From a virus: 64,000 nucleotides of DNA. The notes beneath the pieces are model-generated. The model was not told the origin of the DNA and ran no database searches. It saw only the letters and a list, made by a program, of their open reading frames with translations. The position numbers were made by a program, and so were the translations under genes. Below are positions 4,427 through 28,258 of the stretch, piece after piece. The first letter of the stretch is position 1; every line of letters starts with the position of its first letter. The DNA is taken from positions 1 through 64,000 of IMG/VR virus record IMGVR_UViG_3300017963_000217; one strand, written 5' to 3'.

Positions 4427-4437
4427 TATTCTATAAT
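4407..4437 (+). promoter_or_regulatory. sigma70-type promoter CTAGCA-N17-TATAAT
   Basis: GTCTAGCAAA...ATATTCTATAAT, near-identical to 22230-22260. Confidence 0.65.
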
Positions 4438-4511
4438 ATTGATAGGGACAATTCCATAATTGCAGCTTACGCTGACGCCGTGTAGGTAAAATTATATAGG
4501 AGCTGTCAGTT

Positions 4512-5072
4512 ATGGAATCAATACTAAAACAGGGGAAAAATATGGAACTAAAAACAGGAGATATAATATTTACCTCCAAAGAATCCATAATAGTTAGATT
4601 TATGCGACTATTTCAAAAGGATCCTGTTTTTTGGGGGCATGTTTTAATCGCTAAAGATAATGAAACCGCATGGGAAGCGGGACCAGTATTGAGAGAAACC
4701 GATATAAAATGGAAGTTATTAAAAGAGTCCTCATGGAAAATAATCAGAAAAAAAGACCTCACTGAACATCAAAAAGAAATAATGAAAAAAGTGGCTCCTA
4801 AATTATTGGGGCAGCCTTATAGTATTTCTCGTATTATTCTACAATTACTGGACCACGTATTTGATACAAACGGATTCACCATGATATTTGGAAATAAATA
4901 TTCCCAGGTATGTTCTAGTTATGTAGCTTGGATATACTGGGTTGCTTGTAAACATAAATTCAACGGGGTAGAGTGGCAATCCTGTGACCCAGATGATATA
5001 GAAGATGATCAAATAAACAACCCTAATTTATGGGAGATAATAACTACATACGGAAAGCAGAGGGAAATGTAA
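4512..5072 (+). CDS. permuted papain-like NlpC/P60 (YiiX/YebB-type) enzyme
   Basis: GDIIF..., WGHV (His) N-terminal to VCSSYVA (Cys). Confidence 0.7.
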   Translation: MESILKQGKNMELKTGDIIFTSKESIIVRFMRLFQKDPVFWGHVLIAKDNETAWEAGPVLRETDIKWKLLKESSWKIIRKKDLTEHQKEIMKKVAPKLLGQPYSISRIILQLLDHVFDTNGFTMIFGNKYSQVCSSYVAWIYWVACKHKFNGVEWQSCDPDDIEDDQINNPNLWEIITTYGKQREM

Positions 5073-5114
5073 TAAATAGGACTGGAAATAATAAATAACA
5101 CAAGGAATAATTAA

Positions 5115-5660
5115 ATGGAAATTTTAAGTAAAACAGAAAGACAAATATTAATTAATCAATACGAAATATTAAAAATACTGGATAGCAAGGAGTCTGCATA
5201 TTATAGTAGCTGCATAAATATATTACGTAATGGATATGAATGGCTATATCACCGCAATATTTCAGATTTACCAGATACTATGCCAAGTAATGAGAGCCAA
5301 TTTGTAGTAGAAGTACTTATGATGTACCAATTTATACATGATTTTATAAAGTCTAACCCCGAGTATGATGAAATTTCGAACCATAGTTACGCATATTTCT
5401 GTGGGTTTGATGGGAATAATGAGAGCCAATATATGGGATTTACCAGATTTTTTGTCGATGATATGAATCGATTTGAAAATTTAAAATTTCATAGTAATAA
5501 GGATAGATTTAATAGTCATTGCCCCATGGCAAATAAATATAGAGGTATGATCAATAAATGTAAGTCATTTGGTATTAAAACTAGTTCTTCGATTTCAAAA
5601 GAAGAGGTTTTGGAAATTTTAAATGCTGAACCCGAAACTAAATACAAGATTATATCATAA
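5115..5660 (+). CDS. YfbU family protein
   Basis: ERQILINQYEILKILD, FCGFDGNNE, NSHCPM..KY motifs. Confidence 0.85.
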   Translation: MEILSKTERQILINQYEILKILDSKESAYYSSCINILRNGYEWLYHRNISDLPDTMPSNESQFVVEVLMMYQFIHDFIKSNPEYDEISNHSYAYFCGFDGNNESQYMGFTRFFVDDMNRFENLKFHSNKDRFNSHCPMANKYRGMINKCKSFGIKTSSSISKEEVLEILNAEPETKYKIIS

Positions 5661-5663
5661 TGG

Positions 5664-6038
5664 GTGTATAAAAAAATGGGCGATTTAGGAAAATATTTCA
5701 ACAAACATGAGTTTGAGTGTAAATGTGGTTGTGGTAAAATAGATATGGGTAAAAATTTTATATCCAAATTAGATTTAGCCAGAGAAATTTCAGATACCTC
5801 TTACGTTATAAACAGCGGATATAGATGCGAATCACATAATGATGCTGTAGGAGGAAAATCTGATTCCGCTCATTTAAAAGGATTGGCAGCAGACATTAAA
5901 GCTACTGACTCTAGAAAAAAATTCAATGTAATTAAAGGATTAATAGAAGCAGGCTTTAATAGAATAGGCATTGATAAAGAGTTTATACATGTAGATTTCG
6001 ATGATACTAAAGATAAAGATGTTATATGGTTGTATTAA
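5664..6038 (+). CDS. peptidase M15A (Zn D-Ala-D-Ala peptidase, probable endolysin)
   Basis: FECKCGCG, INSGYRC..HN..VGG..SAH..G.AADI, FIHVD. Confidence 0.9.
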   Translation: MYKKMGDLGKYFNKHEFECKCGCGKIDMGKNFISKLDLAREISDTSYVINSGYRCESHNDAVGGKSDSAHLKGLAADIKATDSRKKFNVIKGLIEAGFNRIGIDKEFIHVDFDDTKDKDVIWLY

Positions 6039-6484
6039 ATAATTAAGGAGTATTTATTATGGGATGGTGTTCAGGAACACGGATATTTGACGCCTTTTGT
6101 AGCATAATGTTTGATCCAGAAAATACAGATTTCAACGAAATTTTAAAGCAGTTTATAGAAGAACTTGAATATATGGATTGGGATTGTCATCGGGATAGCG
6201 CTTATTGGGACACTCCCGTTGTCCAAAAAGCTATGAGGGAATTACATCCAGATTGGTTTGAGGACAAAGAAATTTAATCAGTGGTTTAATTTGGATTAAT
6301 AACTGTTAACTTATATGTTGTGCGCCATAGCCAAATAGATAGACACTGAGGGGGGAGATGGGACACGATGTATTTATGAATAGGTTAAGAACAGATATTA
6401 ATAAGAAACATGAAGTAATGCATCAACACCGATAATAAACTATCCATTTATAATAGAGGATTTATATTTTATTAAGGAGGGCAC

Positions 6485-6544
6485 ATGAAATTTTTTGTGC
6501 ATAATAGCGATGCCTTTTAGTTAAATTTATAACTAGGAGGTATC
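6485..6544 (+). promoter_or_regulatory. leader peptide MKFFVHNSDAF-amber (6485-6520) with hairpin sequestering the SD of ORF 6548
   Basis: own SD AAGGAGG; GATGCCTTTTAGTTA (6509-6523) pairs over 15 bp (incl. G-U) with TAACTAGGAGGTATC (6530-6544). Confidence 0.7.
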
Positions 6545-6547
6545 ATT

Positions 6548-7120
6548 ATGTATATCATAGAACCATATAAGGCAAAAATTCGTCTTATAAGTAATTTGAA
6601 TGGTCTTGTAGAGGTGTATCCTAACTACGAGTCCTTTCTTAATAATTTAACCTACGATTTCATAGATAAACGCATTGTAACCACTTTCAAAGATTGGCCG
6701 AATGTTAACTGGTGGTTATGGGGATTAAGGGAATCAAGATACGAACTTTTCGTTGTCCGTGACGAGTTCGGCAGTGTTTTTAGTCGCACAGAAATTTATA
6801 ACGACTTTAAAGAAATACGCGCTAAAAAACATACCTCTAAATGGATCGAATTTTGGAATCGCAGATATGATTTTGTATATAGATATACACCGGTTCCTCG
6901 TACAGGTAAAATAAGAAGTCATTTCGGTAATTATTATAAACGACCTAAAACTACGCAAGAGCGTAGATGGTCTTTTGCTCATGTGAAATACGTAAGAGGT
7001 AAAAGACGTTCTCATGTGCTACCCAATGTTTGGGATGACAAACAGAGAGGTGACATAGATAACAGAAAATGTTGGAAAAACAAAAAAATAAAAAAGCAGT
7101 GGATGAAAAATCTTGGTTAA
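6548..7120 (+). CDS. basic phage hypothetical protein (PKTTQERR / LPNVWDD / KKQW C-terminus)
   Basis: 190-aa ORF with strong SD and Arg/Lys/Trp-rich C-terminal region. Confidence 0.65.
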   Translation: MYIIEPYKAKIRLISNLNGLVEVYPNYESFLNNLTYDFIDKRIVTTFKDWPNVNWWLWGLRESRYELFVVRDEFGSVFSRTEIYNDFKEIRAKKHTSKWIEFWNRRYDFVYRYTPVPRTGKIRSHFGNYYKRPKTTQERRWSFAHVKYVRGKRRSHVLPNVWDDKQRGDIDNRKCWKNKKIKKQWMKNLG

Positions 7121-7238: not shown

Positions 7239-7312
7239 GCGGGCATAGCTCAGTGGTAGAGCATCTGGTTGCCATCCAGAATACGGGAGTTCGATTCTCC
7301 TTGTCCGCTCCA
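7239..7312 (+). tRNA. tRNA-Gly(GCC)
   Basis: cloverleaf GCGGGCA/TGTCCGC, anticodon loop TTGCCAT, TTCGA, encoded CCA. Confidence 0.95.
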
Positions 7313-7332
7313 AATAAATAAGGGGAGATACG

Positions 7333-7503
7333 ATGGATAGAAAAAAATTGTTAAGACGTAAAAAAGTATTAACAAATCAGATTCGTATTTTCAAGAAAAA
7401 GATTGTAGATTCAACATCGGAAAGCACAGAACAGATGCTACTTGAAAAGTTGGAGGATATAAGAGCAAGTTTATCTAAAATAGAAAAAAGACTGAGATCG
7501 TAA
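7333..7503 (+). CDS. small basic coiled-coil protein (56 aa, below ORF-track cutoff)
   Basis: SD GGGGAG, ATG7333..TAA7503. Confidence 0.55.
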   Translation: MDRKKLLRRKKVLTNQIRIFKKKIVDSTSESTEQMLLEKLEDIRASLSKIEKRLRS

Positions 7504-7658
7504 TGTTTGAGGACTTAATAAAAGAAAAGAAAAAACAAATAGAAGAACAAATGGATAGTAATGTATATTTATATTGCACAATGTGTGGATATACGATGAA
7601 AGCAATGGTAAATATTTGTCCAATTTGTGGCGCCGCCATGATAGGCGCACCTGAGTAA
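7503..7658 (+). CDS. small rubredoxin-like Zn-ribbon protein (51 aa)
   Basis: TAATG overlap; CTMCGY...CPICGA. Confidence 0.65.
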   Translation: MFEDLIKEKKKQIEEQMDSNVYLYCTMCGYTMKAMVNICPICGAAMIGAPE

Positions 7659-7669
7659 AAGGAGTAGAC

Positions 7670-7723
7670 ATGACATAGATTCATAAAATGGAATATGGGT
7701 AGGTTGCCAGAGGGCCTCCTTGA
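7670..7723 (+). promoter_or_regulatory. leader ORF with two in-frame amber codons ending RGPP-TGA (putative arrest peptide / attenuator)
   Basis: SD AAGGAG; ATG ACA TAG ATT CAT AAA ATG GAA TAT GGG TAG GTT GCC AGA GGG CCT CCT TGA; CTCCTTG complementary to downstream SD CAAGGAG. Confidence 0.7.
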
Positions 7724-7769
7724 ATATTGTCTTAAAAATAAAAATAAAAATTAACAAGGAGACAATATC

Positions 7770-8072
7770 ATGAGACCAAAAATGAAAGAACTTAAATACT
7801 GGCTTATTACCCATGCAACGGAAATCAGAGAAACAAGAAAATTACTAAAAGATGCTCAGAGGAATAGTAAAGCTACTTGGAGATTTCGAGGAGATATAAT
7901 TAGAATGGTTCCAGAGTATAGGCACCATCATATTGCATATTCTGAAATGAAAGGTAGATCTAGAGAACAAATAGAACGTCCCAGAGAAGACAACCTCCCC
8001 AATGAAAATTGGATTGAGGAAATCAAAAAGGAATACTGGGATGAACCAAAGACTTTATGTGTTAGTACGTAA
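7770..8072 (+). CDS. hypothetical protein (RHHHIAYSEMKGRSREQIE motif)
   Basis: 100-aa ORF with SD AAGGAG, overlapping the Pth2-like gene. Confidence 0.7.
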   Translation: MRPKMKELKYWLITHATEIRETRKLLKDAQRNSKATWRFRGDIIRMVPEYRHHHIAYSEMKGRSREQIERPREDNLPNENWIEEIKKEYWDEPKTLCVST

Positions 8073-8331
8073 AGATTTGCCCAAGTCCTATCAAGCTGTT
8101 CAGGCTGGTCATGCAGTAGCTGAATGGTTATTGTATGATCAGTCCTGGCAAAATGAAACACTTGTCTATCTGGGAGTGAATAACGAAAACGAATTATTGG
8201 ATTGGAAAGAGAGATTGGATTTTAATAATATAAAGCACGCGTCATTTAGAGAGCCTGATATAGGAGATCAACTGACTGCAATAGCTACTTTGTCCGACGG
8301 GAAAATTTTTAAAAAGTTGAAATTAATATAA
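8041..8331 (+). CDS. peptidyl-tRNA hydrolase 2 (Pth2)-like protein
   Basis: LYVLVRKDL...QAVQAGHA...LVYL...F.EPDIGDQLTAIA; the canonical GK lysine is not evident. Confidence 0.75.
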   Translation: MNQRLYVLVRKDLPKSYQAVQAGHAVAEWLLYDQSWQNETLVYLGVNNENELLDWKERLDFNNIKHASFREPDIGDQLTAIATLSDGKIFKKLKLI

Positions 8332-8406
8332 GCGCCTGTAGCATAGTGGCTAATGCAGCGGATTCTAAACCCGCTTACAAGGGTTCAATTCCCTTCGGGC
8401 GCTCCA
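8332..8406 (+). tRNA. amber suppressor tRNA (anticodon CUA), Gly-like acceptor stem
   Basis: GCGCCTG TA GCAT AGTGGCTA ATGC A GCGGA TTCTAAA CCCGC TTAC AAGGG TTCAATT CCCTT CGGGCGC T CCA; CTA at 8365-8367 centred in a 7-nt loop. Confidence 0.88.
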
Positions 8407-8439
8407 AGATTTGTAACAAAGTTTGAAAAAGTAAAATAA

Positions 8440-8516
8440 GCCGCTATAGCTCAGTAGGCCAGAGCGCGTCATTGGTAATGACGAGGTCTCCGGTTCAATT
8501 CCGGATAGCGGCTCCA
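8440..8516 (+). tRNA. tRNA-Thr(GGT)
   Basis: GCCGCTA/TAGCGGC acceptor, CGTCA-TTGGTAA-TGACG, CCA. Confidence 0.95.
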
Positions 8517-8547
8517 AATAAATATTTAAAAATAAAGGAGATTTAAA

Positions 8548-8796
8548 ATGGAAGATCAAGTAATGGAAAGCACAGTAGAAACCGAAGAGGTAGTAGAGGA
8601 AGTTAATGCTGAGGAAGAGGAAGCGAAACTAAGACAAGAGAGAATCTCAGCTTGTAATAGAGAAATTACATCTGTTTTAGAAAAGTATGGATGTACGCTA
8701 GATGCAGTTATTACTCTTAGAGCTGGACAGGTAATTCCTGGAATCAAGATTGTACCAATAGAGTTGATGCGGCAATCGCAACCACAACCTGTATAA
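8548..8796 (+). CDS. acidic hypothetical protein
   Basis: 82-aa ORF with SD AAGGAG. Confidence 0.6.
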   Translation: MEDQVMESTVETEEVVEEVNAEEEEAKLRQERISACNREITSVLEKYGCTLDAVITLRAGQVIPGIKIVPIELMRQSQPQPV

Positions 8797-8814
8797 TATC
8801 TTACTTACATTAAA

Positions 8815-8885
8815 GCGGGCATAGCATAGTGGTAATGCGGGAGGATTCCAACCTCTTGACCGGGGTTCGATTCCCCGTGTCCGCT
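8815..8885 (+). tRNA. tRNA-Gly(TCC), CCA not encoded (followed by CAA)
   Basis: GCGGGCA/TGTCCGC, GGAGG-ATTCCAA-CCTCT. Confidence 0.92.
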
Positions 8886-8909
8886 CAATAACCATAGGGG
8901 AGAGAGAAA

Positions 8910-10001
8910 ATGCCAGTAGTAACTTATAATCCGTTTACCAGGAATTATGATTTTATTGGTAGTACAAGTACATCAAGTGGGGTATCAGACCATGGATTAT
9001 TAAATGGTCTATTAGATGATGATCATCCGCAATATTTATTAACAGATGGATCTCGACAGCTATCAGCTGATTGGGATTTTGGTGCTTTTACTATATCTGG
9101 AACCGGAGATGTTCATTGTAATGATTTATATACGTCTGGAAGTGGTATCTATATAGGTGGATTGCATCTTACATATGATGGAAATGAATTTATTATACCA
9201 GATGATGTTTTTGTTGACAATAGTAATTTAATGGTCAACGGTGTGATTGGTACTGACACCAGTTTCTTTTTCCTTTCTTCATCAGGTATAATCGGTGTTT
9301 CGGGTATGCCAGATTTGTTAGAACTTAATCAAAACGAGATTATAATTAACGGTGATTTTATTTTCGACAGTAACACCATTTCTGGAACAGGCGACATACA
9401 CTGCAATGACTTATACACAGCTGGAAGTGGTATATATCTTGGTGGGCTACATTTAACTTATGATGGAAACGAACTTAATATTCCCGAAAATGTTTTCATA
9501 GACAAGGATGCATATTGTGAAAATTTATTTACTAACAACAATCTATTTGTTAGTGGTTCTATTGATACAAATAATATAGAATTTAATGGAACAATATCTG
9601 GTACTGGGGATATTTATTGTAACAACCTGTATACCAGCAGTGGTAGTCTGTATATAGGAGATTTACATCTATCATACAATGGATCACATCTAGTTATCCC
9701 CGAACAATTACAAGTTATGGGTGATATAGGTACTGGTAATAACCTGTATGTGGTTGGTGATGTTGTTTTTGGAACTTCATTTGGAACTATAGGTGTTCAG
9801 GGGATGGAAGATCTAATAGAAATTGACCAAGATAAGATGACGCTTAACGGCGATGTTGAAATAGGTGACATGAATGCATATTATCTTGGAGAGGCAACAG
9901 CAAGTGGAACTTGGCGAATAATAAGGGATGGAGAAGATCTAAAGTTCCAATGGTATGATGGTGGAAGTTGGAACGATGGTAATGTGACTGTCAATAGATA
10001 A
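8910..10001 (+). CDS. fibre-like virion protein with TISGTGD(I/V)xCNxLY repeats
   Basis: three internal repeats plus DHGLLNGLLDDDHPQY module shared with the fibre genes. Confidence 0.65.
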   Translation: MPVVTYNPFTRNYDFIGSTSTSSGVSDHGLLNGLLDDDHPQYLLTDGSRQLSADWDFGAFTISGTGDVHCNDLYTSGSGIYIGGLHLTYDGNEFIIPDDVFVDNSNLMVNGVIGTDTSFFFLSSSGIIGVSGMPDLLELNQNEIIINGDFIFDSNTISGTGDIHCNDLYTAGSGIYLGGLHLTYDGNELNIPENVFIDKDAYCENLFTNNNLFVSGSIDTNNIEFNGTISGTGDIYCNNLYTSSGSLYIGDLHLSYNGSHLVIPEQLQVMGDIGTGNNLYVVGDVVFGTSFGTIGVQGMEDLIEIDQDKMTLNGDVEIGDMNAYYLGEATASGTWRIIRDGEDLKFQWYDGGSWNDGNVTVNR

Positions 10002-10007
10002 AATTGA

Positions 10008-10083
10008 TGGGGGATAGTTCAGCGGAAGAACGTCCGGCTCTGACCCGGAAGACTCGAAGGTTCGAATCCTTCTCCCCCAGCCA
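10008..10083 (+). tRNA. tRNA-Gln(CTG)
   Basis: T1-A72 acceptor TGGGGGA/TCCCCCA, G73, loop CTCTGAC, CCA. Confidence 0.95.
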
Positions 10084-20196: not shown

Positions 20197-21099
20197 ATGA
20201 CGCTAAATACTGCGATTCGTGGAGCACAGATAGAGGACTTAAGTATATCTGGTGCGCATTTAGTATCAACCAACTCACCTTCTGACGGCCAAGTTTTGAC
20301 TTGGAATTCCACACAATCTCAGTTTGAGTGGGATGATTTGGGATCTCTGATAACAGGTGAAGCACCTACTGGTGATATAAATGGTGCTAATACTACTTTT
20401 ACAACGGCTAATACACCTGTGTCTAGTACTGAGATGGTGTATCTAAATGGTCTATTACAAGAACCTGGGGCTTTAAATGACTATACAATAAGTGGATCTA
20501 CCATTTCGTTTTTGACTGCTCCTGAAACTGGCGACATTGTATTAGTTAGTTATTTAACTAGCCAGGGGCTAGGTGGTGGTGGAGCGGACCATGGTTCATT
20601 GACTGGATTGGCTGATGATGACCACCCACAATATCTAAAGAACGTGTCTGAAGATACCACACCTCAACTTGGCGGGGATTTAGATCTTAATCAGTATTAT
20701 CTTCAGTTAGATCCTACTCCGACTAGTGACGATACCGGTAACGGTTTTATGTCTTCTGTTACTGTTGATACTAATAGCGTGGGCGTAGGAGCTGGTTTAT
20801 ATATGGCATCAGATGGTCATTATGATATGGCTGACGCAAGCGCATCGGGTACTATGCCTTGCGAGGCGGTTGCACTAGAGACTGGTACTGGTACTAAGAA
20901 AGTCTTGAAGTATGGATATATAAGAAATGATGGTTGGGACTGGACACCAGGCGGATTGGTATATGTATCTACCACAGCGGGACAATTAACTCAGTCTGCA
21001 CCAAGTGGTTCTGGAGAGCAAGTGCAGATAGTAGGATATGCAACAAGTGCGGACGTGTTATTTTTCAATCCAAATTATACGATGGTCGAGATATCTTAA
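20197..21099 (+). CDS. fibre/decoration protein
   Basis: TAIRGAQI N-terminus, YLNGLLQ domain, DH module, shared C-terminal domain. Confidence 0.65.
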   Translation: MTLNTAIRGAQIEDLSISGAHLVSTNSPSDGQVLTWNSTQSQFEWDDLGSLITGEAPTGDINGANTTFTTANTPVSSTEMVYLNGLLQEPGALNDYTISGSTISFLTAPETGDIVLVSYLTSQGLGGGGADHGSLTGLADDDHPQYLKNVSEDTTPQLGGDLDLNQYYLQLDPTPTSDDTGNGFMSSVTVDTNSVGVGAGLYMASDGHYDMADASASGTMPCEAVALETGTGTKKVLKYGYIRNDGWDWTPGGLVYVSTTAGQLTQSAPSGSGEQVQIVGYATSADVLFFNPNYTMVEIS

Positions 21100-21206
21100 T
21101 AAATTTATTAGGTAGCCGGCCTATGGGCCTGCATCGTATGTGATCACCGCGTATAAGGCCGGCATGTTTTTATGCAGTACACAACGCCTAAAAAGGAGAA
21201 CTCTAA

Positions 21207-22220
21207 ATGTCTGAAATATCTAAATTTATGAAAGTGGATTGGTCTAGTATAGCTAGAATTATTGGGATTGAATCATCAAGCGTAGCTAAAATTACTGGAT
21301 CCGATGCTCCTGCTGGAACTCCTTCTCCTGGTGATAGAGGAGTTTTTGGCGGGGGAGTACCTAATGCAGGAAATTATAATCTTATACAATATATTACTAT
21401 TTCAAATACAGGTGATGCTACATCTTTCGGTGATTTGCTTTCTATACCATTCCCTGAGCGTGGTGCAGCATGTTCTAATGGCGCGACTGATAGAGGAGTG
21501 TTTGCAAGCAGTGCCCCTTCTAGAGCCGAGATAGATTATATAACCATATCTACGACGGGTGACGCTACATCATTTGGAAATTTAACACAAGGCAGGCGTA
21601 ATGCGACAGGAACCTCAAATAACACTAATGACAGAGGGGTTTTTGGCGGCGGTGATGTAAGTGGTACTGGGCTTAATTCTATCGAATACATAACTATTTC
21701 TACGACTGGTGATACTCAGGACTTCGGAGATCTTGTCGGTGGGGCTTATGTTAATGTAAGGGCTACTTCTAATGGCACTAATAATAGAGGCGTGTTCGGC
21801 GGAGGATCCTCTGGATATGTTAATATAATACGGTATATTACTATTTCTAGCACGGGAAGTTCTCAAGATTTTGGAGATTTAACATTGGCTAGAGATAATG
21901 CTAATGCATCATCGAATTTGACTAATAATAGAGGCGTATTTGGGGGAGGAACTAATGGATCTGCATTAAACAGGATTGATTATATAACAATTTCAAGTAC
22001 GGGACACGCTTCGGATTTTGGTGACTTATTAGAGGTTAATAACTTTGGGTCTGCTACTTCTAATGGTGTAAGTGATAGAGGCGTGTTCGGCGGCGGCCAT
22101 AATGATGCCGTAGCTCTTAATAGAATACAATATATCACTATTTCCAGTACTGGAAATTCCCAAGACTTTGGAGATTTGATATCACCGAGATATTCTACGG
22201 CAGCAACATCTAATAGTTAA
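21207..22220 (+). CDS. repeat (beta-propeller-like) receptor-binding protein
   Basis: six RGVFGGG...I.YITIS.TG...DFGDL repeats. Confidence 0.7.
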   Translation: MSEISKFMKVDWSSIARIIGIESSSVAKITGSDAPAGTPSPGDRGVFGGGVPNAGNYNLIQYITISNTGDATSFGDLLSIPFPERGAACSNGATDRGVFASSAPSRAEIDYITISTTGDATSFGNLTQGRRNATGTSNNTNDRGVFGGGDVSGTGLNSIEYITISTTGDTQDFGDLVGGAYVNVRATSNGTNNRGVFGGGSSGYVNIIRYITISSTGSSQDFGDLTLARDNANASSNLTNNRGVFGGGTNGSALNRIDYITISSTGHASDFGDLLEVNNFGSATSNGVSDRGVFGGGHNDAVALNRIQYITISSTGNSQDFGDLISPRYSTAATSNS

Positions 22221-22229
22221 AAATAAACT

Positions 22230-22260
22230 GTCTAGCAAAATTAAAAAAATATTCTATAAT
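22230..22260 (+). promoter_or_regulatory. sigma70-type promoter upstream of clpP
   Basis: CTAGCA-N17-TATAAT, same as 4407-4437. Confidence 0.65.
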
Positions 22261-22300
22261 ATAATCGTGTGTAATAATTAAGAATTAGGAGGAATTATTT

Positions 22301-22882
22301 ATGTCAGTGCCTTATGTGATAGAAGGATCTGGCCAAAAAGAAAGGTCTTACGATTTATATTCCAGATTACTAAAAGATCGTATAATTTTTTTGGGAAGAT
22401 CTTTCGAACCTGATTTAGCTAATTCGGTAGTGGCTCAATTGTTATTTTTGGAAGCAAATGATTCAGAAAGTGATATAATTATGTATATAAATAGCCCCGG
22501 TGGATACGTGTCTGCTGAGTTGGCTATTTTTGACACTATGAATTATATCAAACCCGATATTTCAACTGTTTGTGTGGGGCATGCCGCTAGTGCAGCGGCT
22601 TGTATTTTAGCTTCTGGAACCAAAGGTAAAAGATATGCTTTGAAAAATTCTCGTATAATGTTGCATCAGATATCATCTGGTATGAGTGGTCATATAGAGG
22701 ATATGAAAATAGCATACCGGGAAGCAGAATTTCTGAATGATTTAATGGTAGAGGAGCTATCTATAATAACTGGGCATTCTAAGAAAAAGGTAAAGAAGGA
22801 TTTGGATAGAGATAAATATATGAGTGCTGAGGAGGCGAAAGAATACGGAATTATAGACGAAGTCTTGACACATAGGGGATAA
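22301..22882 (+). CDS. clpP: ATP-dependent Clp protease proteolytic subunit
   Basis: YDLYSRLLKDRIIFL, YINSPGG, AAS (Ser), RIMLHQ (His), DRD (Asp). Confidence 0.95.
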   Translation: MSVPYVIEGSGQKERSYDLYSRLLKDRIIFLGRSFEPDLANSVVAQLLFLEANDSESDIIMYINSPGGYVSAELAIFDTMNYIKPDISTVCVGHAASAAACILASGTKGKRYALKNSRIMLHQISSGMSGHIEDMKIAYREAEFLNDLMVEELSIITGHSKKKVKKDLDRDKYMSAEEAKEYGIIDEVLTHRG

Positions 22883-22883
22883 A

Positions 22884-23873
22884 ATGGGTAGAATCGTTTA
22901 TAATAAAGAGAATTCGGGAAAAAAGTTGAGTAGAGGCGGTCCAAGAGATATACAACTACGACAGCGCATAATGTACGAAGAAGCGATTCGTGAATCACAG
23001 ACCCCCGTTATTTTAACTAAAGATAAGTCATCTAAGGCTCCACCCACTGTAGATCTTTCCCAATATTTATCACTTGATAAAGTCAAAATTAAAATAGAAG
23101 AAGCGGTTGAACATACAAAGGAAATAGTTAAAGCTAAATATGAGAGTGGTATAAAAAGCCTCACCGATCAATTAAACGAGTCTAAATCTAATATAGATGA
23201 ACTTAAAAATGAGATATCAAAAAAGAATTTAGAACTAGTTAATTTAAGGGAAAAAATATCATCTACTCCCGAAATTTCTGATAAAGCCCTTAAACAATTA
23301 AATAAAAAAGATTTGAGAATAGTCGAGTTAGAATCAGAAACAAAATTATATGTGGATAAGATATCGAATTTAAATAGAGATATATCTGATATGAAGGGCA
23401 AAGTAGAAAATGCTATTAATTTAGTTCAGGAAAAAGATGCCGAAGTAAAAGAAGTTAGAGATGCGATGGCAAAGAGGGATGCCTATTTGCGAGAAAAAGA
23501 TATAGAGATACATAATAAAAACGCAGAGCTACGAGAAAAAGAAAAAGATTTGTCCAAAAAAGAAATAGAGATTACAAAATTGAAGTCCAAAACAGATTCT
23601 ATGGATGTATCTGGTGAATTGAGTAAGAAACTAGATAGGTTATATCAGAAAATATCTGATGGTTCTATTAGACATTTAGTTGGCAGTAATATGGATAGAC
23701 CGGCGCTCGAGAATAAGATATTCATAGATCCTTTGGAATCTACTGCTGGAGAAAACCTAGATCCACATATAAAAATAAAGGAAGAAAAATATAATAAAAA
23801 AGAAGATAGAAGTGTATCGGCTGACGCTGATAAATTGAGAAATTTACTTAAGTCAGGTAAAGGGAGAAGGTAA
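22884..23873 (+). CDS. long coiled-coil protein preceding the actin
   Basis: about 180-aa heptad region; 2-nt gap to the actin gene. Confidence 0.65.
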   Translation: MGRIVYNKENSGKKLSRGGPRDIQLRQRIMYEEAIRESQTPVILTKDKSSKAPPTVDLSQYLSLDKVKIKIEEAVEHTKEIVKAKYESGIKSLTDQLNESKSNIDELKNEISKKNLELVNLREKISSTPEISDKALKQLNKKDLRIVELESETKLYVDKISNLNRDISDMKGKVENAINLVQEKDAEVKEVRDAMAKRDAYLREKDIEIHNKNAELREKEKDLSKKEIEITKLKSKTDSMDVSGELSKKLDRLYQKISDGSIRHLVGSNMDRPALENKIFIDPLESTAGENLDPHIKIKEEKYNKKEDRSVSADADKLRNLLKSGKGRR

Positions 23874-23875
23874 TT

Positions 23876-24871
23876 ATGTCAAATAGTGGGATAGGACTAG
23901 ATGTTGGAACTAATATGTTGGTAGCGGCATCTATGGATTCAGAAGGTAATCCTGTATACAAGAAACAACGAGATGCATTTTTTAGGATTAGTCCAAAATC
24001 AGAAGTAAATAAAAAAAGCATACGTCTAGCATTGGAAGGACGGGGTGCTAATTTTATTATAGATGGGGAGGATTTTATTGTTGTTGGCGAGGACGCTTTG
24101 TATATGGCAAACGAGCGAAATGAGGAAGCTCGCAGACCTATGAGGAATGGAGTTCTGTCTCCTAAAGAAAAGTCTTCGTTACCCATGATAAAATTGATTA
24201 TAAAGAATTTAGTGGGAGAAGCTAGTAATGATGAAAAATTAGTATTTTCTGTTCCTGCTCCTCCCATTGATGGTAATTTTGACATTTTCTATCATCAAGA
24301 AATGATGAAATCCTATATTAGAGGCATGGGGTTTGAACCAGAGCCTTTGAATGAGGGGTTTGCTATCGCATTTGCAGAACTATTAGATGATAATCTAACG
24401 GGTATGTGTTTGTCTTTTGGAGCTGGTATGGTAAATTCCGTAGTAGTTTATGAAGGAGATCCTATCGTCAAGTTTTCGGTAACAAAAGGCGGTGACTGGA
24501 TAGACCAATCTGTTGCAACAGCATTGGATTATAATACCTCATTTGTTCAAATAGAAAAAGAAGAATCAGGATTTGATTTAATAAGCCCGCAAGGAAAAAT
24601 TCAAGAAGCTCTCGCCGTGTATTATAATCACTTAATAAATTATGCACTGGATAATATAATATATGAACTAAAAAGGTCCCGTTTGCCTTCTTTTAGAAAC
24701 CCTATACCAGTGATTTTATCCGGTGGTTTAACACTGGCTGATAGTTTTACTACGAAATTTAGAATGGAATCGGATAAAAAGACGTATCCATTTAAAATAA
24801 AAGAAATACGAAGAGCTGAAGACCCCATGACATGTGTTGCTCGTGGGTGTTTAATGGCTGCGATTTTATAA
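23876..24871 (+). CDS. actin-like ATPase, volactin-like family
   Basis: GLDVGT (phosphate 1), SFGAG (phosphate 2), LSGG (adenosine); RRPM..G.LS, EKL.FS.PA.PID, KFS..KGGDWID, VARG.L.AA. Confidence 0.85.
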   Translation: MSNSGIGLDVGTNMLVAASMDSEGNPVYKKQRDAFFRISPKSEVNKKSIRLALEGRGANFIIDGEDFIVVGEDALYMANERNEEARRPMRNGVLSPKEKSSLPMIKLIIKNLVGEASNDEKLVFSVPAPPIDGNFDIFYHQEMMKSYIRGMGFEPEPLNEGFAIAFAELLDDNLTGMCLSFGAGMVNSVVVYEGDPIVKFSVTKGGDWIDQSVATALDYNTSFVQIEKEESGFDLISPQGKIQEALAVYYNHLINYALDNIIYELKRSRLPSFRNPIPVILSGGLTLADSFTTKFRMESDKKTYPFKIKEIRRAEDPMTCVARGCLMAAIL

Positions 24872-24891
24872 TTTTAAGGAGGATTGATTTA

Positions 24892-25116
24892 ATGTCTGAA
24901 GAAAGAGTTAGTGGAGAAGTGAAGTGGTTTAATGCTGAACGTGGATTCGGATTCATAACTATGGATGGTGACGAAACAAGTGAATATTTTGTACACTATA
25001 GTTACATCCAGATGGAAGGGTATAAAACTCTACGTGCCGGCCAGAAAGTCACATTCAAGTTAGTTCAGACTGATAAGGGTGTGCAAGCACAGGAAGTAAT
25101 TCCCGAAGAGGAGTAG
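24892..25116 (+). CDS. cold-shock domain protein
   Basis: GEVKWFNAERGFGFI, FVHYS, GYKTL..GQKV.F. Confidence 0.92.
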   Translation: MSEERVSGEVKWFNAERGFGFITMDGDETSEYFVHYSYIQMEGYKTLRAGQKVTFKLVQTDKGVQAQEVIPEEE

Positions 25117-25119
25117 GAG

Positions 25120-25536
25120 ATGCTATTAGCGGAAGCGATTAGGGAAAAGGCTTACATAGAAGAATCTATTCGTGATTTACAGAAATATATGATAGCTTTA
25201 TCTATTGAGGGAGACCAAGATAGTATAAGCGGGTGTATGAGAGAGTTGGACGAATTATATAGCAGATATCAAAAGTTTTCAGTTTCTATAAATCGCACTA
25301 AAAATTCAACTACTATAAAAATAAATGATACTAAATTGAATTTGTCTGACGCCTATATAATACAGAGATCTATGGAGCATAGGCTCTCTGTATATCAGAA
25401 CATACTGGATACCTCTTTTGATCGTGAGGGGGTGTACCCTAAAATATTATTAGAAGAGTTAGAAAGGATACGATTAGACGTTAAGACTATAGGTGCAGAA
25501 ATAAATTATGCCATTTGGAATGTGGAGACTTCTTAG
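25120..25536 (+). CDS. DIP1984-like helical protein
   Basis: MLLAEAI..., IN..N..T, L.DA...R, IN...W pattern. Confidence 0.5.
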   Translation: MLLAEAIREKAYIEESIRDLQKYMIALSIEGDQDSISGCMRELDELYSRYQKFSVSINRTKNSTTIKINDTKLNLSDAYIIQRSMEHRLSVYQNILDTSFDREGVYPKILLEELERIRLDVKTIGAEINYAIWNVETS

Positions 25537-25774
25537 TGATATTTAAATATTTTGTCGAATTCGATAATAACGGAGAGATTAAAGCGCTACATAATCAAAA
25601 AGTTGACGGCGCAGAAGAATATATTGTCAAGTTAATACCAATAAATAGAGCGGAAAAGGAATTATCGGAGCTTGGCAAAAAAGTGTCAAAGTCTGCGGAA
25701 GAGGTGCTGGGTGGTACTAAAAAATTCCGCAGAGAAATAGAGAAATTAAATAGAGATTTAAGGAGAATTAAAAT

Positions 25775-26419
25775 ATGATAGTCGTAGGATTACACGGAAA
25801 AGCTCGGAGTGGTAAAGATCAATTTGGAGAATATTTAGTTGAATCATTTGAAAAAAATTACGATAAGTTTTTTATGAAGGTAGCTTTTGCAGATATACTT
25901 AAACAAATGTGCAAGGATCATTTTGGTTTAGAAACAGACCAGTTATGGGAACGGGGAAAGAATATTAGAGAAATACCTGATTTAAGATTTCCCAAAGGTC
26001 ATATAGGTACTTCTAGTAATCCCAATGATTACTGGACTCCAAGAGAAATAATGCAGGAATTTGGCGGCTTTTATCGTAAAATTAGACACGACTATTGGGT
26101 ATACGCTTTGGACAAAGAGATTCAAAGACTTAAGGATAGAACAGATAATTTCATAATAACAGATGTGCGATATATAAATGAATGCGATTATGTCAAGAGA
26201 AATAAAGGGGTATTAATTAAGATAGTTCGGCCAGTTATACACGAGATTCATGGTATGGATCATGAGTCCGAAACAGCTTTAAATGATTATAACGATTTTG
26301 ATATAGTAATAAATAATGATGGTACGTTAGAAGATTTAAAAAAGGCGGCTGAAGATACATCAGGCGCTATACTAAAAATAAATAGATTAATTGAGAAGGG
26401 AGAAGTATACAATGGCTGA
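25775..26419 (+). CDS. deoxynucleoside monophosphate kinase
   Basis: GKARSGKD P-loop, FAD.LK, TPREIMQ, ITDVR..NE, HESE. Confidence 0.88.
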   Translation: MIVVGLHGKARSGKDQFGEYLVESFEKNYDKFFMKVAFADILKQMCKDHFGLETDQLWERGKNIREIPDLRFPKGHIGTSSNPNDYWTPREIMQEFGGFYRKIRHDYWVYALDKEIQRLKDRTDNFIITDVRYINECDYVKRNKGVLIKIVRPVIHEIHGMDHESETALNDYNDFDIVINNDGTLEDLKKAAEDTSGAILKINRLIEKGEVYNG

Positions 26420-26924: not shown

Positions 26925-27503
26925 ATGGATTACAAGGACAGGTTGGAGTGTTTTAAGAATGAGTTGGAATTAATTAATAGGTCAGAAGTGAGGGAGTTTG
27001 TCAAGGAATGTATAAGACAAGTGCCTGATTATGTGTTTGAAGATTGCCCATCCAGTTCTAGTGGAAAATATCATCCCATAGAAGAACTTGGGCCTGATGG
27101 CACATTGATTCATACTAAAAAAGTATTTGCACTTGCATATGAATTGAGCAGAGGATTAGATTGTGAGTCTAGTAGAGATGAGATTTGTGCTGCTGCACTT
27201 TTACATGATTTGTTAAAACAAGGTAAAGAAAAATCTGGACATACTGTTAAAGAACATCCACAATTAATGGCTGATTTTATAGCAGAGATTTACAAAGATA
27301 AATTTAGAGATAAACTAGATAGAGAGTCTGCGCTAAAGATATATTATGGAATTTTCTATCATTACGGTCCTTGGACAAAACCAGATGTGCGTAAACCTAT
27401 GGGTGAATTTAAGCCTGAAGAATTGGCTGTGTATTTAGCTGATTATGTGAGTAGTAAGCGCTTCGTACATGTGGATGTGAGAAGAAAGTTGGAAGGTATT
27501 TAA
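26925..27503 (+). CDS. HD-domain phosphohydrolase
   Basis: SSSGKYHP, HT, LLHD, H.G.W, LADY. Confidence 0.85.
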   Translation: MDYKDRLECFKNELELINRSEVREFVKECIRQVPDYVFEDCPSSSSGKYHPIEELGPDGTLIHTKKVFALAYELSRGLDCESSRDEICAAALLHDLLKQGKEKSGHTVKEHPQLMADFIAEIYKDKFRDKLDRESALKIYYGIFYHYGPWTKPDVRKPMGEFKPEELAVYLADYVSSKRFVHVDVRRKLEGI

Positions 27504-28258
27504 TGGGCAAAAAATTAGATCTGACAGGGCAGCAGTTTGGGCGATTAACCGTTATGAGAGAGTACGGTAATGATGGTACAAAACATAAACGTGTTTTATG
27601 GATGTGCAAGTGTGTTTGCGGTAATGAGTCTGTAGTGCTGTCATCTAAATTAACTTTTGGACATACTAAGAGTCGTGGGTGTTATAGGTATGATAAAATG
27701 AGAGAGTCTTGCAAAATAAATATACTGGGAATGAGGTTTGGGAAGCTGTTGGTTATTAAAGAGTATCCTTCTTATGTATGTGGTCGAGTAGCATGGGTAT
27801 GTAAGTGTGATTGTGGTAATACAACCACAGTTATTGGCAAAAATTTAAGAAACGGTAATACTGCAAGTTGTGGATGTTACGGTAAACAGCGGCGTATAGA
27901 AGCTAATTCTGGCGAAAATAATTGGAATTGGCGTGGTGGAATTACAGACCTAAATCAGAAAATAAGGGACTTTGTGAAAAAGTCTGGGTGGGGTATAGAC
28001 ATATTTCGTAGAGACGGATTTTCCTGCCTGTTATGTAAACATACCAGTGGAGGCAGTCTAAATGCTCATCATATTATACCACTTAACGAAATAATAGATT
28101 ATTATAATATTACTACAATAGACGAATGTAAAAATTATCCCCTGTTTTTTGATTTAGATAATGGTTCGACTCTGTGTAAAGAATGTCATACATGGGTTCA
28201 TAGTTATAATAACACAGATAAAAATTTTATAAAATCTATGGAGGACTATCATGCCTGA
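27503..28258 (+). mobile_element. free-standing HNH homing endonuclease
   Basis: DLTGQQFGRL / CKC.CG repeats; RDGFSC, AHHI, NG.TLCKECH. Confidence 0.85.

What the first reader, a model, noticed from the sequence alone, without database searches (positions are those of the whole stretch)
22301..25116. Phage cytoskeleton-like operon: ClpP, long coiled coil, volactin-like actin, CSP
Seen: one sigma70-type promoter precedes tightly packed clpP, a 329-aa coiled-coil gene and an actin-fold ATPase. From memory, its motifs (GLDVGT, VVG.DAL..AN, RRPM..G.LS..EK.S.PM.KLII, PA.PID, SFGAGM.N, GGDWID, VARG.L.AA) match haloarchaeal volactin (the Haloferax disk-shape actin) better than MreB, ParM or FtsA. 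Known: phage filaments such as PhuZ tubulin and AlpC actin position replicating DNA. Inference: an uncharacterised actin/adaptor system that organises the infected cell or its shape, with ClpP possibly handling turnover.
Basis: partly seen in the sequence, partly recalled or inferred. Interest (0 to 1): 0.72.

Follow-up and report, generated by a model that had tools for sequence, protein, structure and literature searches.

The report
Phage volactin-type actin with docking adaptor
An uncultured large marine or sediment phage encodes its own actin of the archaeal "volactin" family next to a rod-shaped partner protein whose tail probably docks onto it, so these phages probably build their own actin filaments, which no paper I could search describes.

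Summary
Four tightly packed + strand genes encode a cell-type ClpP (51% identical to E. coli ClpP, triad intact), a 329-aa coiled-coil protein, a 331-aa actin-fold ATPase and a 74-aa cold-shock protein (true start 24892).

The actin is a clear Pfam Volactin (PF25216) member: 241 bits, full length, against MreB at 22 bits. It is 38-39% identical to haloarchaeal homologues that have the same CdpA-like neighbour as Haloferax volactin. Its model (pLDDT 94) best matches the filament formers MamK, MreB and BeeR.

More than 1,600 relatives exist. The ClpP-coiled coil-actin block is syntenic only within one phage clade.

The main new evidence concerns the gene just upstream of volactin genes. In 9 of 11 lineages (phages, a Planctomycetia MAG, haloarchaea) it ends in a basic amphipathic tail (PHI-x-x-PHI-[RK]-x-PHI), against 11 of 157 control ORFs. 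A complex prediction of the actin with the partner's C-terminus gave weak support (ipSAE 0.59, best control 0.00).

Best reading: a phage actin filament plus a modular adaptor. I found no support for ClpP or CSP being functional parts, and the promoter has a perfect -10 but no canonical -35.

This scan found the same module earlier on other DNA, in at least 5 genomes. Filament formation, binding and cargo remain untested.

The parts
22232..22265 (+). Conserved promoter-like element CTAGCAAAAT-N13-TATAAT(ATAAT). The -10 is perfect; the upstream box is non-canonical.
   Evidence: Sequence. Conserved in 6 of 11 related loci. Second copy at 4409-4437. Not flagged by the sigma70 consensus scan.
22287..22292 (+). 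Shine-Dalgarno AGGAGG of clpP
   Evidence: conserved in the alignment
22301..22882 (+). Cell-type ClpP proteolytic subunit (193 aa), triad Ser97/His122/Asp171. A neighbour of the actin module, not shown to belong to it.
   Evidence: Pfam CLP_protease 1.6e-70. NCBIfam PRK00277 266 bits, over its cut-off of 249; head-maturation model 74.8, below its cut-off of 120. 51% identity to E. coli ClpP without gaps. It is the only ClpP-family gene in the 99-kb record.
22884..23003 (+). Coiled-coil protein residues 1-40: conserved basic N-terminal motif (YNKE..GK.L.RGGPRD.QLRQ), net charge +4. Candidate cargo-binding end.
   Evidence: Alignment A1 of 13 orthologues; charge and uniqueness in the record. 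Function is inferred.
23073..23657 (+). Coiled-coil protein residues 64-258: long helical rod (helices 64-127 and 133-258). Length and sequence vary among orthologues.
   Evidence: AF2 model m59da2f6b333d, pLDDT 95-97 over residues 140-230. The central region is variable in A1. Only weak coiled-coil family hits.
23658..23813 (+). Coiled-coil protein residues 259-310: disordered but conserved linker (DGSI.PLVGS.MDRP.LE.KIFIDP..., LD.HI.VKEE)
   Evidence: Invariant P273, F280, D282, P283 and I296 in A1; pLDDT below 50.
23814..23873 (+). Coiled-coil protein residues 311-329 plus stop: terminal basic amphipathic helix (ADKLRNLLK). Proposed actin-docking tail.
   Evidence: Helix 311-324. K317, L318 and L321 invariant. 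Tail motif shared with upstream partners in other lineages. Complex prediction gave weak support.
23876..24871 (+). Volactin-family actin-like ATPase (331 aa)
   Evidence: PF25216 241 bits. AF2 pLDDT 94, pTM 0.91. Foldseek top matches MamK, MreB and BeeR. 38-39% identity to haloarchaeal homologues. Tree.
24892..25116 (+). Cold-shock domain protein (74 aa). A syntenic neighbour, not shown to belong to the module.
   Evidence: Pfam CSD 1e-23; start codon and SD. Separated from the actin by HNH genes or other inserts in L005, L010, L013 and L014.

Best explanation
The core feature is a two-gene phage cytoskeletal cassette.

1. Gene 23876-24871 encodes a volactin-family actin that most likely polymerises with ATP into dynamic filaments in the infected bacterium.
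2. The gene just upstream (22884-23873) encodes its adaptor. This is a rod about 195 residues long (roughly 25-30 nm if fully extended as a helix). Its short basic amphipathic C-terminal helix (residues about 311-324, ADKLRNLLK) docks onto the actin. Its conserved basic N-terminus holds a cargo or anchor that has not been identified (phage DNA, a particle or the membrane).
3. The partner is modular. In other volactin lineages the upstream gene has a different body but a similar tail: a 4-TM CdpA-like membrane anchor in haloarchaea, a small TM protein in another phage, and covalent coiled-coil fusions in Planctomycetota.
4. ClpP is a genuine host-type protease that must borrow an unfoldase. ClpP and the cold-shock protein are co-transcribed neighbours in this phage clade, but I do not count them as parts of the mechanism.

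Shown: family membership, the fold, conservation, synteny and the tail motif. Inferred: polymerisation, tail-actin binding, the cargo and the role in infection.
For: Family and fold:
- PF25216 at 241 bits, full length, against MreB at 22.5 bits, which is below its cut-off. NCBIfam MreB and MamK models score only about 20 bits.
- 38-39% identity over 98% of the length to haloarchaeal proteins, E about 1e-64. Their upstream neighbour is a DUF7139 protein with 4 TM helices, an acidic linker and a small C-terminus. This is the same arrangement as published for HVO_2016/HVO_2015 (PMC12126565). DUF7139 rings only in Haloferax among the 14 control genomes.
- Volactin itself forms dynamic filaments that touch the membrane by their tips (PMC10869688).
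- AF2 model pLDDT 94, pTM 0.91. Best structural matches are filament formers: MamK 5ljv, MreB 4czk and BeeR 8r2n, TM 0.65-0.72. EutJ and DnaK rank lower.
- The nucleotide-binding residues D9, G11, T12, G182, G184, G206, D207, D210, G283 and G284 are invariant across 41 diverse members.

Conservation:
- The actin is among the best-conserved proteins of the block: 60-76% identity, against 25-42% for the coiled-coil protein.
- It has over 1,675 relatives at the 90% clustering level and 301 clusters at the 50% level with E<=1e-30.
- An intein sits in its phosphate-2 loop in L015.

Adaptor:
- The coiled-coil and actin genes stay adjacent in all 14 loci of the clade, and in L029 and L030. They remain adjacent where ClpP is absent (L011).
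- The termini of the coiled-coil protein are conserved while the rod varies.
- The model shows a rod, a disordered linker and a terminal helix.
- The tail motif PHI-x-x-PHI-[RK]-x-PHI lies in the last 25 residues of the upstream partner in 9 of 11 lineages, against 11 of 157 other ORFs. Fisher p is about 8e-7 on the script's 8 of 11 count; the annotated haloarchaeal gene was added by hand. L031 and L032 were examined after the idea was written down, and both hit.
- Natural fusions of a coiled coil, a linker and a volactin domain exist in Planctomycetota (P0142, P0144).
- Complex prediction of the actin with coiled-coil residues 240-329 gave weak support: ipSAE 0.59 (runs 0.59, 0.57, 0.64), best of 3 controls 0.00. 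The mark was reached by 58 of 80 solved complexes and 2 of 110 mismatched pairs. At 0.60 or under it was reached by only 7 of those 80 and by both mismatches that passed. The runs agree in at least 84% of contacts and the partner's pLDDT is at least 54. My own alignments were used, so these counts hold only roughly.
Against: - There is no direct evidence of polymerisation or of binding.
- The complex score falls in the band where a pass is more often wrong than right unless the guess was likely beforehand. No interface was returned.
- The tail motif was defined after seeing the data, is short and is compositionally easy (Lys, Leu, Arg). Two lineages (L016's immediate neighbour and L019) lack it, and only two lineages were truly held out.
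- Synteny among phages this closely related is weak evidence of functional coupling.
- An HMM of the coiled-coil family finds nothing next to the more distant phage volactins.
- The phosphate-2 Asp of other actins is Ser180 here, although this is family-wide and also true of the haloarchaeal proteins.
- Host, timing of expression and cargo are unknown.
Confidence: 0.55

Rival explanations
1. Head-morphogenesis reading: the ClpP-like gene is the prohead protease, the coiled-coil protein is the scaffold, and the actin is an unrelated neighbour.
For: PHROG matches of the protease are mostly labelled 'head maturation protease' (phrog_94, 5e-36). A protease followed by a coiled-coil protein is the classic order. 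The block lies right after tail-fibre-like genes. I could not locate the real head module because the structural proteins match no PHROG.
Against: The protease is the full-length cell type: 51% identical to E. coli ClpP without gaps, with the N-terminal axial region. It scores 266 bits on NCBIfam PRK00277 (over its cut-off) and only 74.8 on the head-maturation model, whose cut-off is 120. L011 keeps the coiled-coil and actin genes without ClpP. The coiled-coil tail motif recurs in upstream partners of volactins that have no protease nearby. No capsid or portal gene is adjacent.
Confidence: 0.08
2. The actin-fold protein is a non-polymerising ASKHA ATPase (a chaperone-like or regulatory ATPase), and the coiled-coil protein is unrelated or is its substrate.
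For: Polymerisation was not tested. Ser replaces the phosphate-2 Asp. ASKHA members such as EutJ and DnaK also appear in the fold search.
Against: The top structural matches are all filament formers. The only characterised family member polymerises in vivo (PMC10869688). High sequence conservation of 60-83% across a phage clade is typical of polymer-forming proteins.
Confidence: 0.12
3. A ParMRC or AlpAC-like DNA-segregation system: the coiled-coil protein binds a centromere-like site on phage DNA through its basic N-terminus, and the actin pushes or positions phage genomes, for example in a plasmid-like prophage state.
For: The layout is an adaptor plus an actin, with the adaptor's C-terminal tail proposed to bind the actin as in ParR. 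The N-terminus is basic. Volactin dynamics were likened to ParM. AlpC/AlpA is a prophage precedent (PMC4446434).
Against: No iterons or centromere-like repeats lie in or next to the module; the only repeats are coding repeats of the upstream 337-aa gene. The adaptor shows no RHH or HTH match. Gene order is adaptor then actin, with only an 80-nt upstream spacer. Partners in other lineages are membrane proteins rather than DNA binders. This is really a sub-case of the best explanation with a specific cargo.
Confidence: 0.15
4. A host-takeover device: the phage filament and rod remodel host cell shape or division, or interfere with host MreB or FtsZ, rather than moving phage components.
For: Volactin's known role is in cell-shape transition. 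CdpA-family partners act at the membrane and the division ring.
Against: No membrane-targeting or TM segment is predicted in this coiled-coil protein. Nothing links it to host cytoskeletal proteins. The idea is untested.
Confidence: 0.1

Closest known systems
Volactin (VolA, HVO_2015) of Haloferax volcanii with its CdpA-like neighbour HVO_2016; Pfam PF25216
   Same: Same protein family (241 bits, full length). 38-39% identity to haloarchaeal members. Same invariant nucleotide-binding motifs, including SFGAGM and GGDWID. Each has an upstream same-strand partner gene ending in a basic amphipathic tail.
   Different: Viral rather than cellular, and probably in a bacterial host (host-type ClpP, CSP, AGGAGG SD, TATAAT). 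The partner is a soluble coiled-coil rod, not a 4-TM membrane protein. It lies in a different clade of the family tree. The cell-shape role is not expected to carry over.
AlpC/AlpA of the Corynebacterium glutamicum prophage CGP3 (PMC4446434)
   Same: A phage-encoded actin-like protein plus an adaptor, used for intracellular handling of viral DNA. It is the closest functional precedent.
   Different: A different actin family; I found no detectable sequence relation in my searches. AlpA is a DNA-binding adaptor, whereas here no DNA-binding domain or binding site was found.
ParM/ParR/parC plasmid partition (type II)
   Same: A dynamic actin plus an adaptor whose C-terminal tail binds the filament, encoded by adjacent genes.
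   Different: No centromere repeats, no RHH fold, a different actin family and reversed gene order.
MamK, MreB and BeeR (best structural matches)
   Same: Actin fold with TM 0.65-0.72. All are filament formers.
   Different: Only 16-18% identity. The MreB and MamK profile scores fall far below their cut-offs.
PhuZ tubulin of nucleus-forming jumbo phages
   Same: A phage-encoded cytoskeletal polymer that organises the infected cell.
   Different: Tubulin superfamily rather than actin. No chimallin or other nucleus genes were looked for or seen here.

Membership tests
Volactin family (Pfam PF25216) | Scores over the curated Pfam threshold across the full-length model | tested here: met
   241.4 bits against a cut-off of 35, covering model positions 3-321 of 321; 240.8 bits in the six-frame search.
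Volactin family (Pfam PF25216) | Fits this family better than MreB, MamK, FtsA or ParM | tested here: met
   MreB_Mbl 22.5 bits, below its cut-off of 27. NCBIfam MreB 22 bits and MamK 19.8 bits against cut-offs of 293-400. In the tree, 148 family rows are split from E. coli MreB and FtsA with support 98. ParM was not compared directly.
Volactin family (Pfam PF25216) | Direct similarity to haloarchaeal members that share volactin's genomic context | tested here: met
   38-39% identity over 98% of the length, E about 1e-64, to Haloarcula, Halogeometricum and Natrinema proteins. These have a DUF7139 4-TM neighbour, as published for HVO_2016/HVO_2015. The H. volcanii sequence itself was not available to me.
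Volactin family (Pfam PF25216) | Actin fold with intact nucleotide-binding motifs | tested here: met
   pLDDT 94; Foldseek matches to MamK, MreB and actin; invariant D9, G11, T12, G182, G184, G206, D207, D210, G283 and G284.
Volactin family (Pfam PF25216) | Forms dynamic filaments in vivo | not testable with these tools
   Known only for H. volcanii volactin (PMC10869688).
Volactin family (Pfam PF25216) | Upstream partner gene carrying a C-terminal docking tail (a feature proposed here, not an established criterion) | tested here: inconclusive
   9 of 11 lineages against 11 of 157 control ORFs. Complex prediction gave weak support: ipSAE 0.59, best control 0.00.
ParMRC / AlpAC-type actin segregation systems | Centromere-like repeats bound by the adaptor, lying next to the genes | tested here: not met
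   No iterons in or around 20900-26000 apart from coding repeats.
ParMRC / AlpAC-type actin segregation systems | Adaptor gene adjacent to the actin gene | tested here: met
   A 2-nt gap between the two genes. They are adjacent in all clade loci.
ClpP (peptidase S14, ATP-dependent Clp protease proteolytic subunit) | Family profile over its threshold and a Ser-His-Asp triad | tested here: met
   PF00574 1.6e-70. PRK00277 266 bits, over its cut-off of 249. S97, H122 and D171 align with the E. coli triad at 51% identity.
ClpP (peptidase S14, ATP-dependent Clp protease proteolytic subunit) | A cognate AAA+ unfoldase (ClpX, ClpA or ClpC) is available | tested here: inconclusive
   No ClpX match in the 99-kb record, but the record is only 55% complete and a host unfoldase could serve.
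ClpP-related prohead (head maturation) protease | Scores over the NCBIfam head-maturation model cut-off | tested here: not met
   NF045542 scored 74.8 bits against a cut-off of 120, and the hit covers only residues 51-188.
Cold-shock protein (CSD) | The Pfam CSD profile | tested here: met
   1e-23, 83 bits against a cut-off of 27.

The most novel reading that the evidence does not exclude
Volactin-family filaments across phages, Planctomycetota and haloarchaea are recruited by one shared docking code. This is a short basic amphipathic C-terminal helix (PHI-x-x-PHI-[RK]-x-PHI) carried by interchangeable upstream partner proteins: a membrane anchor, a small TM protein or a 25-30 nm rod. A large, globally distributed group of big phages uses this code to build its own actin cytoskeleton during infection. 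That would be a second phage cytoskeleton type besides PhuZ tubulin, and a viral reservoir of an actin family so far known only from archaeal cell biology.
Probability: 0.35. Interest if true: 0.8.

Novelty: new variant of a known kind. Interest (0 to 1): 0.66.

Why it matters
Phage-built cytoskeletons are known from very few cases: PhuZ tubulin in nucleus-forming jumbo phages, and AlpC in one prophage.

Here an actin family that has been studied experimentally only in Haloferax turns out to be abundant and strongly conserved in uncultured large phages. I found more than 1,600 clusters at the 90% identity level. The actin always sits beside a partner gene.

If the filaments and the tail docking are real, three things follow:
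- There is a new, widespread mode of intracellular organisation by phages.
- There is a simple, testable peptide-actin interaction that could also explain how haloarchaeal volactin is tethered to the membrane by its CdpA-like neighbour, which is an open question in the archaeal papers.
- There is material for asking how actin families move between viruses and cells.

The repeated intein insertions in the ATP-binding loop independently mark the gene as important to these phages.

Tried and rejected
I could therefore not read the neighbourhoods of P0271 (304-kb contig), P0281 and P0128.
- Relatives cannot be drawn for a virus record.
- Megablast of 20 kb against phage records found no match. No PHROG matches the actin, and almost none match the structural proteins, so the head module and the host stay unidentified.
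- An HMM of the coiled-coil family found nothing in the four distant phage loci.
- The viral scan with P0184 found nothing, and the one with P0128 found only a partial locus.
- Sequence search of the PDB gave only a marginal MreB hit, E 1e-3.
- My first tail regex had the wrong spacing and gave a meaningless 2 of 10. It was corrected.
- Sequencing runs: the DNA is held by one sediment and one seawater metagenome, both possibly its source. No RNA holder is listed, so this says nothing on expression.
- Rfam found nothing in the module or in the split CSP loci.
- Saltatorellin (bioRxiv 817700) is described as MamK-like. I could not test whether it belongs to PF25216.
- No paper in the held library mentions PF25216 or a viral volactin.
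- Complex prediction was first unreachable and was then run once. Only the C-terminal 90 residues were tested, so the N-terminal motif remains untested.
Full report
**What is there.** The window is the first 64 kb of a 99,386-bp linear IMG/VR virus record that CheckV estimates to be 55% complete. It is AT-rich (30-41% GC) and every gene lies on the + strand. At the given coordinates there are four tightly packed ORFs:
- clpP, 22301-22882
- a 329-aa gene, 22884-23873
- a 331-aa gene, 23876-24871
- a cold-shock gene

The cold-shock gene's real start is ATG 24892, behind AAGGAGG, not the upstream ATG at 24832. The 80-nt spacer before clpP carries two overlapping perfect TATAAT boxes and an AGGAGG. 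The hexamer at the -35 position is CTAGCA, and the consensus scan neither flags it nor finds more promoter-like sites than shuffles give. Still, CTAGCAAAAT-N13-TATAAT is conserved in front of clpP in 6 of 11 related phages. It recurs once more in the window, at 4409-4437, with one mismatch. I read it as a conserved phage promoter-like element of non-canonical type.

**The actin.** Pfam's Volactin model (PF25216) matches at E 2.3e-71, 241 bits, over the whole model. MreB reaches only 22.5 bits, below its threshold, and the NCBIfam MreB and MamK models score about 20 bits. No PHROG matches.

tblastn against plasmid records finds five haloarchaeal replicons (Haloarcula, Halogeometricum, Natrinema) at 38-39% identity over 98% of the protein, E about 1e-64. 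In all three that I opened, the gene upstream on the same strand is a roughly 300-aa protein with four TM helices, an acidic linker and a small C-terminus. It carries the Pfam domain DUF7139, which among 14 control genomes rings only in Haloferax volcanii. This is the arrangement published for the CdpA-like HVO_2016 next to volactin HVO_2015 (PMC12126565). That paper also reports volactin in CdpA pull-downs at borderline significance.

An AlphaFold2 model built on 30 diverse relatives has pLDDT 94 and pTM 0.91. Its best PDB matches are filament formers: the MamK filament 5ljv, Caulobacter MreB 4czk and BeeR 8r2n, at TM 0.65-0.72 and 16-18% identity. EutJ and DnaK rank lower. By sequence alone the PDB gives only a marginal MreB hit.

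The phosphate-1 (D9-x-G11-T12), phosphate-2 (G182-x-G184), GGDWID (G206, D207, D210) and adenosine (G283, G284) positions are invariant in 41 diverse members. The Asp that precedes phosphate-2 in other actins is Ser180 throughout the family, including the haloarchaeal proteins.

**Distribution.** The word-indexed search gives 1,675 proteins at E<=1e-3, with the best 120 at 66-83% identity and from contigs up to 176 kb. The exhaustive search of 50%-identity representatives gives 981 clusters at E<=1e-3 and 301 at E<=1e-30. Among named members are Planctomycetota proteins.

Many cellular-looking, GC-rich members carry N-terminal extensions. P0142 and P0144 join a long coiled coil and a Pro-rich linker to the volactin domain, and P0124 and P0145 are tandem double actins.

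A FastTree of 150 rows separates all family members from E. coli MreB and FtsA (support 98). It puts the window in a 13-row clade of viral contigs (support 99), inside a mostly AT-rich 26-row clade. The haloarchaeal and Planctomycetota-like sequences fall elsewhere. Known viral sequences appear at five or more separate places, including two huge phages of 485 and 595 kb. This is a quick tree with local support values only, so I draw no conclusion about donors or direction of transfer.

**Synteny.** In 14 viral loci whose actins are 60-76% identical, the gene order is kept as: ClpP, coiled coil, actin, CSP, g138, g87, dNMP kinase, g91, HD protein. L029 and L030 (actins about 43% identical to P0126) also have ClpP, a coiled-coil protein and the actin.

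This is whole-block synteny among relatives, so it does not single out ClpP or CSP as functional partners:
- L011 has the coiled-coil and actin genes without ClpP.
- HNH genes or other ORFs separate the actin from CSP in L005, L010, L013 and L014.
- The more distant phage volactins (L016-L019) have neither ClpP nor a match to the coiled-coil HMM.

The actin is among the most conserved proteins of the block, whereas the coiled-coil protein is the least conserved (25-42% identity).

**The coiled-coil protein.** It matches only generic coiled-coil families weakly. Thirteen orthologues share the following:
- a basic N-terminal motif (YNKE..GK.L.RGGPRD.QLRQ)
- a conserved segment at the start of the rod
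- a central region that varies in both length and sequence
- a conserved C-terminal part ending in D-L-A-K-L-R-x-L-L-K

The AF2 model shows helices 20-39, 64-127 and 133-258 (pLDDT up to 97), a disordered stretch at 259-310 that nevertheless holds invariant residues, and a terminal helix at 311-324. The N-terminal 40 residues and the last 19 residues each carry net charge +4, and neither motif recurs elsewhere in the record.

**The tail.** The haloarchaeal membrane partners end in GLLGSIRSLFR, GLMSRLRSLFFE and GLLNRVRSLVKRD. This prompted a look at the genes upstream of other volactins:

| Locus | Upstream protein | C-terminal sequence |
|---|---|---|
| L017 | 116 aa, TM protein | DLNKLREIKNK |
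| L018 | 207 aa | AMGALKAVRKK |
| L020 (Planctomycetia) | 334 aa | VERLKQIKQQ |
| L031 (fetched afterwards) | 220 aa | TLEKMKRLKGGKK |
| L032 (fetched afterwards) | 196 aa | ALEELKKLRKKK |

Written as PHI-x-x-PHI-[RK]-x-PHI within the last 25 residues, the motif is present in the upstream partner of 9 of 11 lineages. The script counted 8 because it picked a spurious ORF in L021; the annotated gene has LGSIRSL. Among other + strand ORFs of the same loci it occurs in 11 of 157. Fisher p is about 8e-7 on the 8 of 11 count.

The motif was defined after seeing most of these tails, so the p-value overstates the case. The two lineages seen afterwards both hit, where about 7% would be expected by chance for each.

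One complex prediction, the actin with coiled-coil residues 240-329 and each chain supplied with its own alignment, returned weak support. The ipSAE was 0.59 (runs 0.59, 0.57, 0.64) and the best of three controls was 0.00. The mark was reached by 58 of 80 solved complexes and 2 of 110 mismatched pairs. At 0.60 or under it was reached by only 7 of those 80 and by both mismatches that passed. The runs agree in at least 84% of contacts and the partner's pLDDT is at least 54. Because my own alignments were used, these counts hold only roughly, and no interface was reported.

**ClpP and CSP.** The protease is a genuine cell-type ClpP. It is 51% identical to E. coli ClpP over 190 residues without a gap, and Ser97, His122 and Asp171 align with the catalytic triad. 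It scores over the curated cut-off of NCBIfam PRK00277 and far under that of the ClpP-related head-maturation model. It is the only ClpP-family gene in the record, and no ClpX is encoded in the 99 kb held. The record is incomplete, however, and a host unfoldase could serve. Nothing I found ties ClpP or CSP mechanistically to the actin.

**Most likely mechanism.** A phage actin filament plus a modular adaptor. The coiled-coil protein is probably a dimeric rod. Its C-terminal helix docks on the actin, in the way ParR tails or WH2 helices use the cleft of their actins; this comparison rests on my knowledge of those systems and was not tested here. Its basic N-terminus holds a cargo that remains unknown. 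No centromere-like repeats accompany the genes, which speaks against a plain ParMRC copy.

I put about 0.97 on family membership, 0.7 on filament formation, 0.55 on the adaptor-by-tail model and 0.2 on any direct role for ClpP.

**Novelty.** I found no paper that mentions PF25216 or a viral volactin. The known phage precedents are AlpC/AlpA (PMC4446434) and PhuZ.

This scan has already met the same ClpP, coiled-coil and volactin module on other DNA, in at least five genomes, and its earlier follow-ups reached similar readings. From those notes I took only the 'CdpA-like neighbour' lead, which I then checked myself. The tail idea was written down before I read them.

I class the finding as a new variant of a known kind: a phage cytoskeleton with an adaptor, but built from a different actin family and with a possibly cross-domain docking tail.

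Noticed in passing
L015:3067-5169 (+); also representatives P0122, P0149, P0165, P0166, P0211, P0222, P0235, P0240, P0241, P0250, P0258, P0262, P0268: The volactin gene of a related phage is one 700-aa ORF carrying an intein (Hint, intein-splicing and LAGLIDADG domains). It is inserted at residue ~181, inside the phosphate-2 SFG|AGM loop. About a dozen ~700-aa family representatives are split at query positions ~180, ~190, ~204, ~219 or ~256, which suggests several independent intein sites in this actin family.
   Followed up: partly
L011:5732-6206 and L013:9604-10076: The cold-shock gene is split after codon 18 by about 260 nt in two related phages (a possible small intron). Rfam found no known intron family at gathering score.
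   Followed up: partly
L005:3364-4350, L010:7006-8747, L013:6874-8602: HNH-type homing-endonuclease-like genes and other ORFs are inserted between the actin and CSP genes in some relatives. The window's own 251-aa Cys-rich HNH-like gene (27503-28258) has partial copies scattered in these loci.
   Followed up: no
window 7239-10083: A cluster of five tRNA genes includes one with anticodon CTA (amber suppressor, 8332-8406), which ARAGORN labels 'Pyl'. Earlier notes of this scan discuss it.
   Followed up: no
window 21207-22220 (+): A 337-aa protein just upstream of clpP is built of six ~49-aa repeats (period ~147 nt..NDRGVFGGG...I.YITISTTG...DFGDL..). It matches no Pfam or PHROG family. Homologues are duplicated or fused in L007, and a related C-terminus occurs in L030. 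It is probably a beta-propeller-like tail or fibre component.
   Followed up: no
window 4409-4437 (+): A second copy of the promoter-like element CTAGCAAAWT-N7-ATATTCTATAAT lies upstream of ORF 4512-5072. Only these two perfect TATTCTATAAT boxes exist in the 64 kb.
   Followed up: partly
G000:C1:64770-85790 (beyond the window): A single 7,006-aa ORF. Earlier notes of this scan read it as a tape-measure protein fused to RNA-polymerase-like and nuclease domains. I did not examine it.
   Followed up: no
L020 (Planctomycetia MAG) 3992-5146 and 5217-6770; proteins P0124, P0145, P0142, P0144: Planctomycetota carry two adjacent volactin paralogues, single polypeptides with two actin domains in tandem, and fusions of long acidic or coiled-coil N-terminal regions to the actin domain. 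This points to a cellular volactin system in that phylum that is, as far as I could find, undescribed. Its relation to 'saltatorellin' was not tested.
   Followed up: partly
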